Shown piece after piece: positions 4,312-16,287 of a DNA stretch of 16,502 nucleotides. Source of the DNA: a virus; the UHGV virus genome UHGV-0224345. One strand, given 5' to 3'. Both the position numbers and the translations under genes were made by a program. Position 1 is the stretch's first letter. Each line of letters opens with the position of its first letter. The notes under the pieces were generated by a model. The model ran no database searches and had not been told where the DNA came from. It saw nothing but the letters and a program-made list of their open reading frames with translations.

Positions 4312-5005
4312 CCGGGACTGCAGTGTCTCCCGGACGTCATCCGGAAGATGGCTGTAGGGATTGCCATCCACCTTATGGCTGCCGCTGTAAATCAGCGTGA
4401 TTTCCACGCCCTGTTTCTCCAGCGCAGCACCGTAATTGCTGTGAGCCATCATGACGCCGATGGAGCCTGTCCGGGCGGTCTGCGTGACCAGACGCCGGGA
4501 GGCGGCGCTGGCAAGCAGCTGACCTGCACTGCAGTTCATGTCGTTGGCCAGCGCCCATACCGGTTTTATGTCTCGCACACGGGCGATGATGTCAGCACAG
4601 TCAAATGCTCCCGCCACCATTCCGCCTGGCGTGTCCATATCGAGCAGAATGCCGTCCACCATCGGATCGCTGGCAGCCTGTTGCAGACGGGCGATAATGC
4701 CGTTGTAACCGGTCATCCCCGAATACGGCTGTAGCGCCCGCGTCCGGCTGACCAGCGTGCCGGAAACCGGCAGCACGGCGATGCCGTTCATGACCTGATA
4801 ACTGCGGGCCTGTCGTGGTCCGTCATCATCACCGGATAATGCCAGCGCCGCGGGTGCCTCCTGGGCAGTCAGGCTGTCACCGGACACCGCATCCGTCAGG
4901 CGGCTGATCCCAAGCTGGCCTGCAAGCGCACAAAAGAAAACCCGCGCATAGGCGGGTTCAAGCATCAGCGGCTCATTAAAGGCCATACTGGCAATATGCG
5001 GGAGA

Positions 5006-5025
<20 letters not shown>
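3706..5025 (-). CDS. C: Head maturation protease / scaffold protein C
   Basis: Lambda gpC homolog of 439 aa beginning VTAELRNLPHIASMAFNEPLMLEPAYARVFF from GTG at 5025 (GGAGGAGAAGA upstream). The start overlaps the B stop by 20 nt as in lambda. The track's 477-aa ORF is an upstream in-frame extension. Confidence 0.93.
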
Positions 5026-8706
<3,681 letters not shown>

Positions 8707-8732
<26 letters not shown>

Positions 8733-9252
8733 TCAGCAACCCCGGTATCAGTTCATCCAGCGCGGCTGCTTTGTTCATGGCTTTGATGATATCCCGTTTC
8801 AGGAAATCAACATGTCGGTTTTCCAGTTCCGGAAAACGCCGCTGTACCGAGAGAGGGATCCCGTCAAGAATACTGGCAATTTCACCTGCGATCCGTGACA
8901 GCACGAAAGTACAGAATGCGGTTTCCACCACCTCTGCGGAGTCTCTGGCATTCTTCAGCTCCTGTGCGTCGGCCTGCGCACGCGTAAGTCGATGGCGTTC
9001 GTACTCAATAGTCCCAGGCTGGAGATCTGCCTCACTGGCAGCCCTGTAATCCTCAACCTCTTTACGGAGTTTTTCATTTTCGATATCAGCTTCCCTCTGC
9101 GCATACCACTGAATTGCCATGGCGGTATCAAATACAGATTCAACGCCCTTACCACCTCCGGAGACGCAAGGGAGTCCCTGAGACTGCCAGCGTTCAATCG
9201 TTCGCGGATCCACGTTGAAAATTTCGGCAAGTTTCTTTTTATTAACCTTCAT
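8707..9252 (-). CDS. nu1: Terminase small subunit Nu1 (N-terminal DNA-binding region diverged from lambda, remainder lambda-like)
   Basis: 181 aa. From about residue 70 ([60 protein letters not shown]...) it matches lambda Nu1 as I recall it. The N-terminal part ([41 protein letters not shown]...) is only partly conserved. Confidence 0.95.
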
Positions 9253-9277
9253 GAAACAGTCTCACAATAAATACAGG

Positions 9278-9393
9278 GGCCGACATGAAAGTGCCCGAAA
9301 ATGACTTTTTTAGGCGTTTTCATGTCGGACCTTTTACGGATTCGATATTAGAAAAAACAAATAGTTATGTTCGAGAAGTACCGACATGATTTT
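9278..9393. promoter_or_regulatory. cosB-like terminase binding region: three copies of CCGACATGA in the R1 / R2 (inverted) / R3 arrangement
   Basis: CCGACATGA at 9280-9288 and 9381-9389 (direct), TCATGTCGG at 9320-9328 (inverted), lying between cosN and the Nu1 start, where lambda has R3-I1-R2-R1. Confidence 0.6.
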
Positions 9394-9428
9394 CCCCGGA
9401 AAATTTTCATAAATAGCGAAAACCCGCG

Positions 9429-9440
9429 AGGTCGCCGCCC
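9429..9440 (-). other. cos: cosN cohesive-end site (12-nt GGGCGGCGACCT on minus strand); cosQ-like sequence about 9457-9470
   Basis: Reverse-complement of 9429-9440 is GGGCGGCGACCT, followed on the minus strand by CGCGGGTTTTCGCTATTTATGAAAATTTTCCGG. Plus strand 9441-9470 is the reverse-complement of a lambda right-end-like sequence (GGGTCCTTTCCGGCGATCCGACCGGTTACG). Confidence 0.9.
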
Positions 9441-9646
9441 CGTAACCGGTCGGATCGCCGGAAAGGACCCACGAAATGATAATGATTATCATCTATATAA
9501 GGTTTATCACAACATGTGTGTACGCCATCAAACCACGAGAAATAATCAATTATGACGCAGGTATCGTATTAATTGATCTGCGTCAAATTAACGTAAAAGC
9601 AACTTCAGATAATACAAATCAGCAACACTGAATATGGGGAAACATT

Positions 9647-9832
9647 ATGTCATCAAAGAACAGAACCCGCAGAACAACAACCCGCAACATCCGATTTCCA
9701 AACCAGATGATTGAACAAATTAACATCGCTCTTGATCTGAAAGGTTCAGGAAACTTTTCAGCGTGGGTTATTGAAGCCTGCAGAAGAAGGCTGTCAACAG
9801 AGAGTTCGGGTATGAATTACATAATTAAGTAA
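9647..9832 (+). CDS. Small ribbon-helix-helix (Arc/MetJ/CopG-like) putative DNA-binding protein
   Basis: 61 aa, MSSKNRTRRTTTRNIRFPNQMIEQINIALDLKGSGNFSAWVIEACRRRLSTESSGMNYIIK. Basic N-tail, then strand (NIRFP), helix (MIEQINIALDLKG), helix (NFSAWVIEACRRRL). GGGGAAA sits upstream of the ATG. Lies in an AT-rich island. Confidence 0.65.
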   Translation: MSSKNRTRRTTTRNIRFPNQMIEQINIALDLKGSGNFSAWVIEACRRRLSTESSGMNYIIK

Positions 9833-9964
9833 CATGGTGTTCACAGAACACGCAGTTACCGGACACATCAGTTTTCCATTCGCTCCCCGGCAGTACAGGC
9901 TTCCCCTCTGACGGGATAGCCTGAAAAAATAACACAGAAAATTATTTGTTATAATTAATATAAC

Positions 9965-10105
9965 TTACTCAAAAAAAAGCGACGAGAAAATCAGCATCAA
10001 CGAACAATAAGCGCCAATACGTGATAACAAATGGCAGCCATATTTATCTGCAGTATAAGCAATGGACAGGATAACCACACCAGAAACCGTCAGCATAAAA
10101 TCCAT
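9965..10105 (-). CDS. Candidate 46-aa hydrophobic peptide (not in ORF track; hand-translated)
   Basis: Minus-strand ATG at 10105 to TAA at 9965-9967 gives MDFMLTVSGVVILSIAYTADKYGCHLLSRIGAYCSLMLIFSSLFFE. GGGGAAG lies 6 nt upstream. AT-rich context, convergent with the RHH ORF. Confidence 0.25.
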   Translation of the reverse strand: MDFMLTVSGVVILSIAYTADKYGCHLLSRIGAYCSLMLIFSSLFFE

Positions 10106-10455
10106 TTGAACTTCCCCGGACAAAATCGACTCATCTAAAGATTTACAGCTCTTTTTATTATCAATATGTTAAAAGTAAAATAAACAGATGTTCAATAACA
10201 CGAATACAAAAACGTGCTGAAATTCAATGAATCCATTTCTGTGTCATCAATTAATAGTGATAAACATCCGGCTTCTTCCACCATCGCACCGGACAGGCGA
10301 CTATGAGGGGACAACGCCGCGCTCCGTTAACGCGGTAAACCCCGGTGTGTATCGTTTTTGATTATCCCCGCACACTCGCGCAGAGGAGTCTCCCTGTCGG
10401 GCTGCGGTCTCTGTTAATGAGGGAATACAGCGACGATACGGCGCATCAACAAAAC

Positions 10456-10929
10456 TTATTTCAGGCACTGAGTGCGGATATAGTCCTGTGCCCCTTCCAG
10501 TTGCTTGTGCATCGTCATCAGCCGCTCTCTGAGGGTGAAATAATCCCGTGTAACGGTGTCTGCCAGTTGGGGGCCGGTTGCATTATCCACGCCGGAGGTG
10601 GTGGGGGCTTCACGCACGGAGCCTGGACAGGTGGCGTTGATCCGCAGGCGCTTACGACCAGCGGCAACGTCAGCGCGAAGAGTTTCATTTTCAGCTCTCG
10701 CATCGGCTAATTCCCTCGAGTATTTTGCATCGAGCGCAGCAACATCGCGCTGGCGCACCTGCATATCAGTAATGGTTGCGTTCGCCAGCTTCAGTTCACT
10801 GGCTTTGTTATCGCGCTGCGCTTTGTAGGTAATCGCGTTATCACGGTAATGGTCTGTTGCCATCCACAGCGCACCACAGGCCACCAGCAGAATAACGATA
10901 AACGCGGAAAGCATTCGGTTTATGTTCAC
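10456..10929 (-). CDS. Rz: Spanin inner-membrane subunit Rz (i-spanin)
   Basis: 157 aa; [69 protein letters not shown]...[22 protein letters not shown] strongly resembles lambda Rz. GTG start overlaps the upstream ORF stop (GTGA); an alternative ATG is at 10914. Confidence 0.9.
10518..10703 (-). CDS. Rz1: Spanin outer-membrane lipoprotein Rz1 (o-spanin), embedded in the +1 frame of Rz
   Basis: 61 aa, [61 protein letters not shown]. Lipobox (VVSAC) and proline-rich [11 protein letters not shown] core as in lambda Rz1; nested entirely within Rz. Confidence 0.85.
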
Positions 10930-11410: not shown

Positions 11411-11944
11411 TTATCTGTCGATTCCCCAGCACGCCAGCGCGCTCTCCTGGTCACGACGGGATACCTGACCATAACAGTTATTTGAGCGGATACGGCAGTC
11501 TCTGCCACCGTCCTTAATCCACCAGCGAATCGCCTCACACGCTCCCCTGCGATCACCTGCATTAATTCGTTTATAAAACGTCGACGGGAAACACTTACCG
11601 GGACCAATGTTGTACGGACAGAATGACGCGATCCCCGCTTTCTGGGGTTCACTCAATGGCACTCTGATGTTTTTCTCCACCCATGCCAGCGCCTTATCAC
11701 GCTCAATGGCGTTAACCCGGTCGCATTTTTCCTTCGACAACTTCATGCCCGGGACGACAGGTTTACTATCCACCAGGATGGCACCGCGGCAGATGGTCCA
11801 GATACCCGCGCCATCACGGTATGCCGTGGTGTGGTTACCTTCCTTTTCATCCAGAAACTGGTCGAGGATTTCAGGCGCAGGCGCACCTGCGGCAATCAGC
11901 GCCAGAACGGCAGCCGACAGGCCGTATTTGATTTTGGTGTTCAT
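11411..11944 (-). CDS. R: SAR (signal-anchor-release) endolysin, T4-lysozyme-like muramidase
   Basis: 177 aa, MNTKIKYGLSAAVLALIAAGAPAPEILDQFLDEKEGNHTTAYRDGAGIWTICRGA... Weakly hydrophobic Gly/Ala-rich N-terminal segment, then a lysozyme-like E...D...T catalytic motif; resembles phage 21 R21 / prophage RrrD-type lysozymes. Confidence 0.9.
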   Translation of the reverse strand: MNTKIKYGLSAAVLALIAAGAPAPEILDQFLDEKEGNHTTAYRDGAGIWTICRGAILVDSKPVVPGMKLSKEKCDRVNAIERDKALAWVEKNIRVPLSEPQKAGIASFCPYNIGPGKCFPSTFYKRINAGDRRGACEAIRWWIKDGGRDCRIRSNNCYGQVSRRDQESALACWGIDR

Positions 11945-13237: not shown

Positions 13238-15214
13238 TCATGCCGCGATGTCCGCGTTGTTCACTTCCACCTTCACACTGTCAATCAGCAGCGTATATGT
13301 CGCCGCCTTTGATATGCCTGTCAGTTGCAGTTTGTCCGCCGCCCCTGATGCCGGAGATTTCACCAGTGTGAACGGCGTCCCCCGTTTCTCATCCAGTACC
13401 GGCGTCACCTGAATGCTGTTGTTTCCGGCAAACTCAAAAGCCAGTGTGTGCCATCCGTTATCAAAGACCCCGAACGTTTCCAGCTTCGCATTCGGCTTCT
13501 TGTGGTGCATCGCGTTCAGGTTCGTCGCATCCGTCTGCAGAAAGAAGGACATCAGCATGTCGTTGCCTTCCTCTGCCAGCGTCACTCCCTCCGGCAGGGA
13601 CGACAACTGCCAGTAAATGCCCAGGGCAAACTGATTCGGCACCAGTGAACCCGGCAACTTAAACCGTACGCTCACACGTCCCCCCTTCTTCAGTAACTCC
13701 ACTCCCTGTCCGGCTGCATCATGCTCCAGAAACCAGATGTGGTTTTCCGGTTTATTCAGTTGCAGGGCCTTACCTCCCGTAGCCCCCGCATCACTGACCA
13801 CCGCTTCAGCAATGTTTTTGTTAACATTGTCTCCGCTCGCCGGTTTGTGATAATAGCGCCAGCCCTGTGATGCCAGGTCTTCGCCGGACGCCAGCAGACT
13901 CATCAGGGTTCGGTTACTGACCGGGGCTTCCGGCTCTCTCTCCGTACCTTCACCGGAAGGTCCGGTGGGCTTCACCGTATCAGGCTGTTTTCCGGTAATG
14001 AATTCAGCGTTTCTCCCGGCATGCACAAGAATCGCCGTTGCCAGACGGTCGGAAATAATCCCACGACGTGCCCATGATCCAAAATGCGTTTTACGGTCGG
14101 CCGTCGTCCAGGTTTTGGCGTCCGTTCGACCACCGGCTCCGTAATACCCAATATCCGCAACATCCGGATCTTCTGACGGCTCGTTGGTACCCACATTTCG
14201 CCCGTTTTCATCCGTCATAAACGGCACAAAGAAGATTTTTTTTGCGGATTTCGTCTTGTATGCACCATACACCGCATCGTATTGCGAAGAATAAGTCTGC
14301 TTCCAGTAGTAGGTCGTGTCGCCACAAATCCAGGGAACCGATGACGGAGAGCCCCCGAGACACTGACCTCCGAATTCCGACAGGTCAGAACGATATTTTT
14401 CCACCATGGAATCAAACAGCCCCGGCTGAGTGGCGTATGCACCCTGTTTCAAATCAAACTCGCCCTGCATCCAGACCACTGCAAGCAGAATATTTTTAGG
14501 GTTGGCCTTCAGTGCGGCCTGAGTACGGGTAAGCAGGTCCTTGTACAGTGGCTTATCAACACCCCAGCGTGCCGAGGTCTCGCTTGCGCCGGTGGATTCG
14601 CTGAAGGTACCTTCATCGCCCGCCAAAAATGCAGAACCACCACGGCAGCACGGAACCAGAAGAATACCGGCATTCGCCGGAATAAACGGCAACAATTTCT
14701 TCGCGATATGTAATCCCTGCCCCACGCATCCATACTGAGCTGCGCTGGCTTTCGGGTGTGAAAACTTACTCAAATCCTGAACATCATGCAGGCAGTGGTC
14801 CGCAGGAATAATGTCATTGTAGTTACAGGACGCACCACCCGGCGTGACAGTGCTGCGACGCGCCAGCTGTTTAATACGCGGGTCCGGACGGTCATATGTC
14901 TCCGGCAGCGGAAGCCCTTCACCATACGCCATACCGTTTGACTGCCCGGCCAGGGCAACAACAAAGTAATACTCCGGGTTGCTGGTGGTGCTGATAACTG
15001 CGCCTTCTCCATCCGACGGCTTCACCACCACAGGTGTGGTGACATCACCTTCCGCCGCAATGGCCTGCATCAGGGTATAAGGCGTGATGGCCACCGGACT
15101 GCCAAATGGCTGCCACCCCTCCTTCAGTTTTTGTGTCAGTCGTTTCGCAAGGTCTGACGGCGATGCCGCCCTGACAACATCATAGTGTTTAAATGCCATG
15201 GTTCTTTCCACCAT
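13238..15214 (-). CDS. nanS-p: Prophage-encoded sialate O-acetylesterase (NanS-p-like; N-terminal DUF1737-like region plus SGNH-type esterase and C-terminal domain)
   Basis: 658 aa. MAFKHYDVVRAASPSDLAKRLTQKLKEGWQPFGSPVAITPYTLMQAIAAEGD... resembles the NanS-p / YjhS-like esterases of EHEC lambdoid prophages, which sit between the late regulatory region and S. The likely start is the second ATG at 15199 (MAFKH). Confidence 0.85.
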   Translation of the reverse strand: MVERTMAFKHYDVVRAASPSDLAKRLTQKLKEGWQPFGSPVAITPYTLMQAIAAEGDVTTPVVVKPSDGEGAVISTTSNPEYYFVVALAGQSNGMAYGEGLPLPETYDRPDPRIKQLARRSTVTPGGASCNYNDIIPADHCLHDVQDLSKFSHPKASAAQYGCVGQGLHIAKKLLPFIPANAGILLVPCCRGGSAFLAGDEGTFSESTGASETSARWGVDKPLYKDLLTRTQAALKANPKNILLAVVWMQGEFDLKQGAYATQPGLFDSMVEKYRSDLSEFGGQCLGGSPSSVPWICGDTTYYWKQTYSSQYDAVYGAYKTKSAKKIFFVPFMTDENGRNVGTNEPSEDPDVADIGYYGAGGRTDAKTWTTADRKTHFGSWARRGIISDRLATAILVHAGRNAEFITGKQPDTVKPTGPSGEGTEREPEAPVSNRTLMSLLASGEDLASQGWRYYHKPASGDNVNKNIAEAVVSDAGATGGKALQLNKPENHIWFLEHDAAGQGVELLKKGGRVSVRFKLPGSLVPNQFALGIYWQLSSLPEGVTLAEEGNDMLMSFFLQTDATNLNAMHHKKPNAKLETFGVFDNGWHTLAFEFAGNNSIQVTPVLDEKRGTPFTLVKSPASGAADKLQLTGISKAATYTLLIDSVKVEVNNADIAA

Positions 15215-15392
15215 CTGAAAAATAATTCTTTAAAATACCTGACATGTAATACAGAAAAAACACAAAACCATACCTTAAATAAAAACCTCATCATCAAGCA
15301 GATATGCATGGATAAACTACAAGACGAGATATAAACCACCCTGCATTTAAATAAACAATAAACAACATCAGAAAAATAATTCTGCTCTATGG

Positions 15393-15421
15393 TTTACATT
15401 CAAAAATATCATTTATACTTT
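15393..15421 (+). promoter_or_regulatory. Candidate sigma-70 promoter for the 111-aa ORF
   Basis: TTTACA (15393-15398), 17-bp spacer, TACTTT (15416-15421); alternatively TATACT at 15414-15419 with a 15-bp spacer. AAGGAA ribosome-binding site before the ATG at 15460. Confidence 0.35.
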
Positions 15422-15459
15422 TCAGAACATCACCAGCAAGACATAAACAAGGAAACTAA

Positions 15460-15795
15460 ATGAAGTGGATTGTGATTGATACAGTTATCCAGCCATCATG
15501 CGGAATATCTTTTTCAGTCATATGGAGTAAAATAAAATTAATAATCTGGTATCAATCGGATGCTTTCTTACCTCCTGAAAGTATATTTACACTGACTCAC
15601 ACAGGTATCATGCTCAATAACAAAGTGCTACCTGTAACCATTTACAACGTAGCACCATTCAATAAAACATTCTGGAATTTAATCAAAAACAGCCAGGAAT
15701 GTCCTACAAATACAGATAACGTATTGAATGAATGCTTTAATAACCGTTGCACTCTGCAAATATGTCCTTATGGACTAAAACAACAAAGTCCATAA
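15460..15795 (+). CDS. Hypothetical protein (111 aa), AT-rich, Cys-containing, divergently transcribed from the NanS-p-like gene
   Basis: [111 protein letters not shown]. Good ribosome-binding site (AAGGAA 6 nt upstream). Markedly AT-rich compared with flanking phage genes. Confidence 0.55.
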
Positions 15796-15830
15796 GGAGT
15801 TTACTCACATCTGACAAAATCAATATAAAC

Positions 15831-15850
15831 AGCCCCTCCGGAGAGGGGCT
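15831..15850. terminator. GC-rich hairpin AGCCCCTC-CGGA-GAGGGGCT; U-rich tail only on the minus-strand side
   Basis: 8-bp GC-rich stem with 4-nt loop. Minus-strand RNA continues GUUUAUAUUGAUUUUGUC; plus-strand RNA continues GGAGAGUGGCGC. Confidence 0.4.
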
Positions 15851-16287
15851 GGAGAGTGGCGCTATGTGCCATTGCATGGTGCCGGGTGCCTCCCGGTGAA
15901 TTCAGTACCAGCACCTGAATCCGCGATTATCCCATATACCTACTCGCTGATTGCCCCTCCGCACAGGGGGATTCACCATGCCAGTTTCTTTTAACAAACT
16001 CCCCGCAAACCAGACAACAGTCAACCGCCTGAATTGTGAAGTATTTAAAAATTTCTCCCGCTAACTGATACCCGGCTAACAGTCTGGCGTTTTCTTTTTC
16101 AGCAACGGGAAAGCAACAACCACCACACCCGCCACCAGCACACCGTCAGCCAGCACTGACATTATCCGGCTGCTGCAATGCCACTCACAAAAACAGTAAG
16201 CAATCACTTTTTACCGTAACAAGTGATAATCCAGATATGTATCTACCCCAGATGAGTAATCCGAAGTTCATCCATACCACAGGTACT

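What the first reader, a model, noticed from the sequence alone, without database searches (positions are those of the whole stretch)
9647..9832. Arc/MetJ-like ribbon-helix-helix gene directly beside cos in an AT-rich island
A 61-aa ORF with a clear strand-helix-helix signature and a basic N-terminal tail lies about 200 bp from cosN on the strand opposite the packaging genes. It has its own ribosome-binding site and sits in an AT-rich stretch (9441-10455) typical of accessory insertions. RHH proteins are usually repressors or antitoxins, but no obvious operon partner is on the same strand. Its target is unknown; it could regulate the convergent small ORF or act in trans.
Basis: partly seen in the sequence, partly recalled or inferred. 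Interest (0 to 1): 0.55.

Follow-up and report, generated by a model that had tools for sequence, protein, structure and literature searches.

The report
YlcI/YnfO ribbon-helix-helix gene beside cos
The 61-codon ORF next to the phage cos site is a real, strongly conserved gene of the already catalogued but uncharacterised YlcI/YnfO (DUF3950) family, present even in phage lambda, and it most likely encodes a small ribbon-helix-helix DNA-binding repressor made by the prophage.

Summary
ORF 9647-9832 (+) starts 206 bp past cosN (9429-9440), opposite the Nu1/A packaging genes, in an AT-rich stretch. It is a real gene: Pfam DUF3950 E=9e-19, NCBIfam YlcI/YnfO above cut-off, and pN/pS 0.07-0.10 over codons 1-49. 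RefSeq already names the identical protein "YlcI/YnfO family protein". E. coli K-12 has two copies (ylcI, ynfO). Phage lambda has an intact 64-aa copy that its reference records do not annotate.

In 80 related loci the gene always lies on the anti-late strand, directly before the packaging module (lambda-type cos, or an HNH gene 42 bp away). Its C-terminal tail and far-side neighbours are swapped by recombination. Divergent relatives sit in the regulatory zone of P4/PICI-like satellites, behind palindromic operator-like arrays.

No functional study exists. Best reading: a prophage-expressed, probably autoregulating RHH repressor. Its DNA target in this phage could not be identified. This is a known family of unknown function, of modest interest.

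The parts
9647..9832 (+). YlcI/YnfO (DUF3950) family gene, 61 aa. Basic N-terminal arm (residues 1-12), predicted ribbon strand RNIRF (13-17), helix A (19-32), GSGNFS turn, helix B (37-55 in the model). Conserved core is about residues 1-50; the tail is variable.
9636..9641 (+). Shine-Dalgarno-like GGGGAA, 7 nt upstream of the ATG
   Evidence: sequence. Homology with the HNH-type phage PPyecE starts here.
9608..9613 (+). Weak -10-like hexamer GATAAT (GACAAT in lambda) with no good -35. Only a candidate for the gene's own promoter.
   Evidence: The promoter scan did not call it; inference.
9545..9577 (.). Inverted repeat ATCAATTATGACG/CGTATTAATTGAT (13-nt arms, 7-nt spacer) in the most conserved part of the cos-to-gene spacer. 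Candidate operator or cos-associated element, specific to cos-type phages.
   Evidence: Absent from the HNH-type context.
9429..9440 (-). cosN cohesive-end sequence (GGGCGGCGACCT on the - strand); a landmark, invariant in all cos-type loci
9826..9890 (+). Decayed partial copy of the gene's own start region and first codons, directly after the stop codon (recombination scar). Contains the palindrome GTGTTCACAGAACAC (9837-9851).
9965..10105 (-). Convergent 46-aa hydrophobic ORF (RefSeq hypothetical WP_000347013.1) that travels with this tail variant of the gene. No family match.
9441..10455 (.). AT-rich accessory (moron) region between cos and Rz. 9647-10452 forms a block shared at 95-98% with phages that have a different packaging module.

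Best explanation
The ORF encodes a small ribbon-helix-helix DNA-binding protein of the YlcI/YnfO (DUF3950) family. Like other RHH proteins it should form a dimer. In that dimer the two RNIRF strands pair into a ribbon that enters the major groove, helped by the basic N-terminal arm. By alignment with Arc, the candidate base-contacting residues are T12, N14 and R16. The gene lies antisense to the late operon and has its own ribosome-binding site, so it is most likely transcribed from its own weak promoter in the lysogen and silenced by late transcription after induction. There it most likely acts as a transcriptional repressor that controls its own promoter and the leftward (anti-late) accessory transcription unit that starts beside cos. 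The cargo of that unit differs between phages: nothing further in this window, and a DUF1398 gene in Qin-like prophages. Shown here: it is a real gene under purifying selection, it belongs to the family, it has the RHH fold, its position and strand are fixed, and relatives have operator-like arrays upstream. Inferred: dimerisation, DNA binding, repression, expression in the lysogen and the identity of the target.
Confidence: 0.5

Rival explanations
1. It is a trans-acting cross-regulator between mobile elements. The phage copy binds operators on other prophages or on P4/PICI-type satellites, or the reverse. That would make it part of helper-satellite or inter-prophage immunity rather than a local autoregulator.
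For: The family is shared by lambdoid phages and by satellites with integrase, AlpA, primase and their own TerS. E. coli genomes carry several copies, with a median of 2 places and up to 14. No cis motif is common to the two phage contexts. One satellite lies embedded next to a prophage's own copy, a configuration described for helper-embedded PICIs (PMC10111431).
Against: The satellite proteins are only 35-50% identical and differ at a predicted base-contacting position (G instead of N14). Their putative operators are not found in this window. There is no direct evidence of any cross-talk.
Confidence: 0.2
2. It is a packaging-associated DNA-binding factor. It would bind near cos, for example to modulate terminase action or to protect the prophage cos from terminases of other phages.
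For: It always lies directly before the first packaging element. In the 61 loci that carry lambda-type cosN, cosN is 211-219 bp from the ATG in 60 of them (632 bp in L009). In 17 of the 19 loci without cosN, an HNH endonuclease gene starts exactly 42 bp away. The cos-to-gene spacer is constrained. In satellites the domain is fused to the N-terminal DNA-binding part of a Terminase_2 small subunit in five protein clusters of 120-129 aa.
Against: It is antisense to the late operon, so it should be poorly expressed when packaging occurs. The same protein core accompanies two unrelated packaging systems. Divergent members lie in non-packaging contexts: satellite regulatory zones, and a chromosomal site after a cytochrome-bd/CydDC-like operon in Pantoea and Erwinia. 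From established knowledge of lambda, a cos fragment of about 200 bp (cosQ-cosN-cosB) suffices for packaging.
Confidence: 0.12
3. It is an orphan RHH antitoxin, or part of a toxin-antitoxin or defence pair.
Against: No co-directional partner exists in this window. The tail beyond the core is only about 11 residues. PADLOC gave no hits for the gene or its alternative neighbours. The covariation of tail and neighbour is explained by a recombination junction inside the gene.
Confidence: 0.05
4. It is a non-functional relic whose conservation reflects constraint on cos-flanking DNA.
For: The DNA from cos to about codon 45 is co-conserved with lambda.
Against: pN/pS is 0.07-0.10 with differences concentrated at third positions. 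The gene is equally conserved where no lambda-type cos is adjacent. It is intact in the decayed prophages DLP12 and Qin.
Confidence: 0.02

Closest known systems
E. coli K-12 YlcI (DLP12 prophage, b4589) and YnfO (Qin prophage, b4533); Pfam PF13132 DUF3950; NCBIfam NF041551
   Same: Same family (about 77-80% identical), same NFS motif, and the same position next to the Nu1 homologues nohD/nohA on the opposite strand. The window protein is identical to RefSeq WP_001329960.1.
   Different: Only the C-terminal tail and the far-side neighbour differ. None of these proteins has a known function.
Unannotated lambda ORF (approximately complement 48109..48303 of NC_001416), 64 aa
   Same: The orthologous gene, about 218 bp from cosN. 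Codons 1-49 differ at 4 nonsynonymous and 17 synonymous sites.
   Different: Different tail (TSEKRAYTSIKSDEE). It is convergent with lambdap79 (YbcW-like) instead of the 46-aa ORF. It is not annotated in NC_001416 or J02459.
Arc and Mnt repressors of phage P22 (RHH, immI region)
   Same: Small phage-encoded RHH proteins with an N-terminal arm. The strand-helix segment aligns in register (NLRWPREV against NIRFPNQM). They are expressed on their own in a late-gene neighbourhood.
   Different: No significant sequence-profile match (hhalign probability 2.8%). No adjacent antirepressor gene under its control in this window. Operators unknown.
CopG/omega/PutA-type RHH transcriptional repressors and RHH antitoxins (TacA, ParD, HicB)
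   Different: No toxin partner, no plasmid-copy-control context, and sequence similarity at noise level.

Membership tests
DUF3950 / YlcI-YnfO family (PF13132, NF041551) | Score above the curated cut-off of the family models | tested here: met
   Pfam 67.5 bits against 25. NCBIfam 35.2 bits against 30. phrog_949 E=9e-32.
DUF3950 / YlcI-YnfO family (PF13132, NF041551) | Conserved NFS motif and a small size of about 50-80 aa | tested here: met
   N36-F37-S38 are present. F37 is invariant and S38 nearly invariant across divergent members.
DUF3950 / YlcI-YnfO family (PF13132, NF041551) | Genomic position as in the named members (beside the Nu1 homologue of a lambdoid prophage, opposite strand) | tested here: met
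Ribbon-helix-helix (Arc/MetJ/CopG) superfamily | Strand-helix-helix topology of about 45 residues | tested here: met
Ribbon-helix-helix (Arc/MetJ/CopG) superfamily | Glycine-containing turn and helix-B N-cap (G-x-S/T/N) between the helices | tested here: met
   G33-S34-G35-N36-F37-S38 precede helix B.
Ribbon-helix-helix (Arc/MetJ/CopG) superfamily | Significant match to a curated RHH sequence profile or to a solved RHH protein | tested here: not met
   No RHH family in Pfam at E<=1. PDB phmmer found none. The PDB profile search gave CopG 9kkd at E=0.88 only. HicB-like PHROG E=0.012. hhalign to Arc gave probability 2.8%.
Ribbon-helix-helix (Arc/MetJ/CopG) superfamily | Obligate homodimer with an intermolecular antiparallel beta-ribbon | not testable with these tools
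Ribbon-helix-helix (Arc/MetJ/CopG) superfamily | Sequence-specific binding to repeated operator sites | tested here: inconclusive
   Operator-like palindrome arrays lie upstream of divergent satellite members. No equivalent site is identifiable for this gene.
Type II toxin-antitoxin RHH antitoxins | Adjacent co-directional toxin gene and a C-terminal toxin-binding extension | tested here: not met
   No same-strand neighbour. The tail is about 11 residues. No PADLOC hits.
P22 immI-type Arc/Mnt | Pfam Arc match and control of an adjacent antirepressor gene | tested here: not met
   No Arc hit. No antirepressor in the window near the gene. Some relatives have a KilA-N or antirepressor gene 1.5 kb or more away, but not adjacent.

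The most novel reading that the evidence does not exclude
YlcI/YnfO-type RHH proteins may be a shared regulator family of lambdoid helper phages and their P4/PICI-like satellites. The phage copy, kept at the lysis-packaging junction and expressed from the prophage, would act in trans on satellite or other-prophage operators (or the satellite copies on the helper). Variants fused to a TerS DNA-binding domain would interfere with packaging-site recognition.
Probability: 0.12. Interest if true: 0.65.

Novelty: already known. Interest (0 to 1): 0.3.

Why it matters
The gene itself is already catalogued, so the finding is not a discovery of a new element. Its value is in three points. First, a gene present in about 85% of complete E. 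coli genomes (the 1.2-kb region that contains it matched 4639 of 5426), and in phage lambda itself, still has no known function and is missing from the lambda reference annotation. Second, the evidence here gives it a fold (RHH) and a fixed place in the phage genome. Third, relatives in satellites come with clear candidate operators. Together these make simple binding and reporter experiments possible. If the protein proves to regulate prophage accessory genes or helper-satellite interactions, it would fill a small gap in the best-studied phage group.

Tried and rejected
- Foldseek against PDB gave no hits. Sequence and profile searches of PDB gave nothing significant. hhalign to Arc aligned in the right register but with negligible probability.
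- Rfam found no RNA family in 9250-10500.
- PADLOC gave no defence or toxin-antitoxin signature for the gene or for its alternative neighbours.
- The two satellite-type operator motifs (GTGTTTAAACAC, TGGTACGTACCA) are not enriched in the window.
- The single GTGTT..AACAC palindrome just after the stop codon is not significant by count.
- GGTA-N-CGTA lies upstream of the gene in 61 of 80 loci and is unique in the window. It was chosen post hoc, and a shared gapped 8-mer between two 300-bp sequences is expected by chance, so it is only a lead.
- No k-mer of 8 or more is shared between the cos-type and HNH-type upstream regions.
- The 'transcriptional repressor' label under the Pasteurella Pmp7 match belongs to a doubtful ORF on the other strand and was discarded as evidence.
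- The lambda ribosome-profiling paper (Liu et al. 2013) could not be obtained.
- Literature searches for ylcI, ynfO and DUF3950 returned only gene lists and polymorphism tables.
- The first genome contigs attempt failed for lack of a conserved stretch and was repeated with a tighter alignment.

Full report
WHAT IS THERE

The window is a lambdoid phage or prophage segment in reverse orientation. The large terminase (6807-8732) and Nu1 (8707-9252; Pfam Phage_Nu1 E=7e-91) are on the - strand. The reverse complement of the lambda cohesive-end sequence GGGCGGCGACCT is at 9429-9440. Rz (10456-10929) and a lysozyme (11411-11944) follow, also on the - strand.

The ORF of the finding, 9647-9832 (+), is exactly as described:
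- It has 61 codons and an ATG start, with GGGGAA 7 nt upstream.
- The ATG is 206 bp past cosN.
- It is on the strand opposite the packaging genes.
- GC content in this stretch drops to 0.34-0.43, against 0.52-0.58 on both sides.
- Nothing follows on the same strand. The next gene is a convergent 46-aa hydrophobic ORF.

IS IT A GENE

Yes.
- It matches Pfam DUF3950 (E=9.2e-19, 67.5 bits against a cut-off of 25), NCBIfam NF041551 'YlcI/YnfO family' (35.2 bits against 30) and phrog_949 (E=9e-32, function unknown).
- The 1.2-kb region is 100% identical to prophages in E. coli SF-088 and S4. There PGAP already names the product 'YlcI/YnfO family protein' (WP_001329960.1).
- Similar DNA occurs in 4639 of 5426 complete E. 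coli genomes, at a median of two places each.
- Against the lambda copy and the copy in phage PPyecE_EH1910, 17-18 of 21-22 differences in codons 1-49 are at third positions, and pN/pS is 0.07-0.10.
- Across 35 distinct cos-type sequences, diversity is 0.032, 0.017 and 0.158 at codon positions 1, 2 and 3.

LAMBDA AND K-12

- Phage lambda has an intact 64-aa homologue, MSTKNRTRRTTTRNIRFPNQMIEQINIALEQKGSGNFSAWVIEACRRRLTSEKRAYTSIKSDEE, at the same distance from cos.
- Neither NC_001416 nor J02459 annotates anything between 47944 and 48502. Some recent lambda records call it 'hypothetical protein'.
- In K-12, ylcI (DLP12) and ynfO (Qin) each lie 389 bp from the Nu1 homologues nohD and nohA, on the opposite strand.
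- ynfO is followed 57 bp later by ydfO (DUF1398) on the same strand.

FOLD

- With a 29-sequence alignment that includes genuinely divergent members, AF2 gave a model with mean pLDDT 73.6. Residues 11-50 score 77-87. There is an extended segment at 13-18 and helices at 19-32 and 37-55.
- Foldseek found nothing in PDB.
- The sequence fits the RHH pattern. It has a basic arm (KNRTRRTTTR), an alternating strand RNIRF, a hydrophobic helix A, a G-S-G-N-F-S turn and helix B. I15, R16, F17, F37, S38, V41 and A44 are invariant or nearly so even in members only 31-55% identical.
- hhalign places NIRFPNQM on Arc's NLRWPREV, though with negligible probability. By that register T12, N14 and R16 would face the DNA; this is inference.
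- Curated RHH sequence profiles do not match significantly. The only hints are a HicB-like PHROG at E=0.012 and a CopG-family PDB chain at E=0.88.
- A dimer model could not be run.

CONTEXT

In 80 IMG/VR loci the gene is always on the strand opposite the late and packaging genes, directly before the first packaging element.
- 61 loci have lambda-type cosN. In 60 of them it lies 211-219 bp from the ATG (632 bp in L009).
- 19 loci lack cosN. In 17 of these an HNH endonuclease gene starts exactly 42 bp away and divergent, followed by a Terminase_2 small subunit.
- In the HNH-type phage PPyecE_EH1910, homology to the window begins at the ribosome-binding site. The gene is therefore conserved independently of cos DNA.

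The far side is variable:

| Far-side neighbour | Strand relative to the gene | Distance | Loci |
|---|---|---|---|
| 46-aa hydrophobic ORF | convergent | 135-198 bp | 46 |
| DUF1398 (YbcV-like) gene | same strand | 105 bp | 15 |
| Rz | opposite | 833-937 bp | 19 |

- The C-terminal tail after about residue 50 varies in sequence and length, and it covaries with that neighbour.
- Window 9833-10452 is 98% identical to PPyecE, while the gene core differs at 22 of 147 positions. A recombination junction therefore lies inside the 3' end of the gene.
- The 60 bp after the stop codon are a decayed copy of the gene's own start region. This is another recombination scar.

FAMILY BREADTH

- A profile search of 1.84 billion representative proteins found only 177 hits. 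Many of them are error-ridden lambda sequences.
- Genuine divergent members are confined to Enterobacterales, Gilliamella and a Pasteurella satellite.
- Most lie in P4/PICI-like satellites, between the integrase/AlpA genes and the primase operon and divergent from that operon (L153, L144, L131, L137, L004). This is the 'dynamic' regulatory zone described for Gram-negative PICIs (PMC10111431).
- A Pantoea/Erwinia group lies 110 bp after a cytochrome-bd/CydDC-like operon, in a chromosomal context.
- Five protein clusters of 120-129 aa fuse the domain to the N-terminal 50 or so residues of a Terminase_2 small subunit.

OPERATOR-LIKE SITES IN RELATIVES

- In L004, the 60-aa family member is preceded by two perfect TGGTACGTACCA palindromes 33 bp apart. 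They flank a TATAAT, and the second abuts the ATG.
- Upstream of members with a KGIRFP strand, GTGTTTAAACAC-like palindromes (up to 2 mismatches) occur at 2.5 per kb, against 0.03 per kb in 432 kb of flanks.
- Four such sites lie at -123, -100, -76 and -30 in Xenorhabdus and Pectobacterium.
- This is the layout expected of autoregulating RHH repressors. That the proteins bind these sites is inference.

THE WINDOW'S OWN TARGET

This could not be identified.
- The cos-to-gene spacer is more conserved (pi 0.078) than synonymous sites. Its most conserved part (9537-9596, pi 0.016-0.054) contains an inverted repeat that is unique in the window.
- That repeat is absent from the HNH-type context, and the two contexts share no motif.
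- The satellite motifs are not enriched here.
- The palindrome at 9837-9851 and a GGTA-N-CGTA motif are leads without statistical support.
- No convincing sigma-70 promoter was found on the + strand. A GATAAT at 9608-9613 (GACAAT in lambda) is the best candidate.

EXPRESSION AND LITERATURE

- No functional study of YlcI, YnfO or DUF3950 was found. ynfO is listed among uncharacterised y-ome genes (PMC11551758).
- ybcW-ylcI is reported as a convergent overlapping transcript pair in at least half of the K-12 RNA-seq samples analysed (PMC12288877). ylcI is therefore transcribed in a cryptic prophage.
- ydfO, the gene after ynfO, is strongly induced by an ionic liquid in exponential phase (117-fold by qPCR). 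That paper also cites earlier work in which YdfO overexpression increased resistance to oxidative stress (PMC4077768).
- PADLOC shows no defence or toxin-antitoxin signature.

CONCLUSION

The finding is real and its structural interpretation is right. The gene belongs to a family already present in Pfam, NCBIfam and RefSeq, and it is a standard feature of lambdoid phages rather than a peculiar insertion.

The best-supported mechanism is a dimeric RHH repressor that is made from the prophage on the anti-late strand, controls its own promoter and whatever accessory cargo follows it, and is silenced by late transcription (confidence about 0.5).

Three rivals remain:
- a trans-acting role between phages and satellites (0.2);
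- a packaging-related role (0.12);
- an orphan antitoxin (0.05).

Novelty is 'already known' as a family with unknown function, and interest is modest.

Noticed in passing
window 9477-9491 (and 9497-9509): A perfect 15-bp palindrome TGATAATGATTATCA lies right next to the cosQ-like AGGACCC (9464-9470). It is conserved in lambda and matches 14 of 19 positions of the Fur-box consensus as I recall it. The only promoter-like site called in the island (-35 TTGTGA, -10 GATAAT, - strand, 9512->9485) overlaps it and points toward cos and Nu1.
   Followed up: no
window 9826-9890: There is a decayed partial duplicate of the ylcI-like gene's start region and first codons immediately after its stop codon. 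It reads 'MVFTEHAVTGHISFPF', compared with '...TRNIRFPN' in the gene. It looks like a recombination scar.
   Followed up: partly
window 9965-10105 (-): This is a 46-aa very hydrophobic ORF (MDFMLTVSGVVILSIAYTADKYGCHLLSRIGAYCSLMLIFSSLFFE), annotated as hypothetical in RefSeq. It has no Pfam, PHROG, NCBIfam or PADLOC match. It is co-oriented with the late operon and accompanies this tail variant of the gene in 46 of 80 loci.
   Followed up: partly
window 15821-16010 (-): A strong Rfam match to the sRNA STnc100 (132 bits, E=1.8e-29) lies next to a very AT-rich stretch (GC 0.32-0.34 at about 15150-15750).
   Followed up: no
L004 (E. coli CP027459, 3713563-3725925): A PICI-like satellite (integrase, AlpA-like gene, D5-type primase, its own 162-aa TerS, a capsid-like gene) lies directly beside a prophage's lysis-DUF3950-HNH junction, where the prophage TerS is reduced to a 61-aa fragment. 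This looks like a helper-embedded PICI of the kind described in PMC10111431. It carries two DUF3950 genes, one of them fused to a TerS N-terminal domain.
   Followed up: partly
L090-L122, L138, L145 (genome-contig hits); IMG/ENA 3.5-kb contigs; phage record MW057783: Many assemblies of unrelated taxa (Streptomyces, Cohnella, Pedobacter, Shewanella and others) contain lambda-identical contigs of about 3.5 kb or 48.5 kb. A 'Campylobacter phage CJLB-4' record also looks like lambda. These probably come from lambda control DNA. They inflate the apparent taxonomic range and the number of error-ridden 'homologues' of this protein.
   Followed up: no
L168 (Pasteurella phage Pmp7, OR544138) 4853-5032 (+): A genuine DUF3950 ORF is unannotated here. 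The overlapping 224-aa 'transcriptional repressor' annotated on the opposite strand looks like a spurious call.
   Followed up: partly
L139-L143, L158-L161 (Pantoea/Erwinia): A 55-56-aa family member sits 72-119 bp (about 110 bp in most loci) downstream of a cytochrome-bd-like plus CydDC-like four-gene operon, on the same strand. This is a conserved chromosomal, apparently non-phage context.
   Followed up: no
window versus L003: The SF-088 prophage that matches 9300-10500 at 100% has three tRNA genes upstream of its lysis cassette. ARAGORN finds no tRNA anywhere in the window, so the window is mosaic relative to that prophage outside the tested stretch.
   Followed up: no
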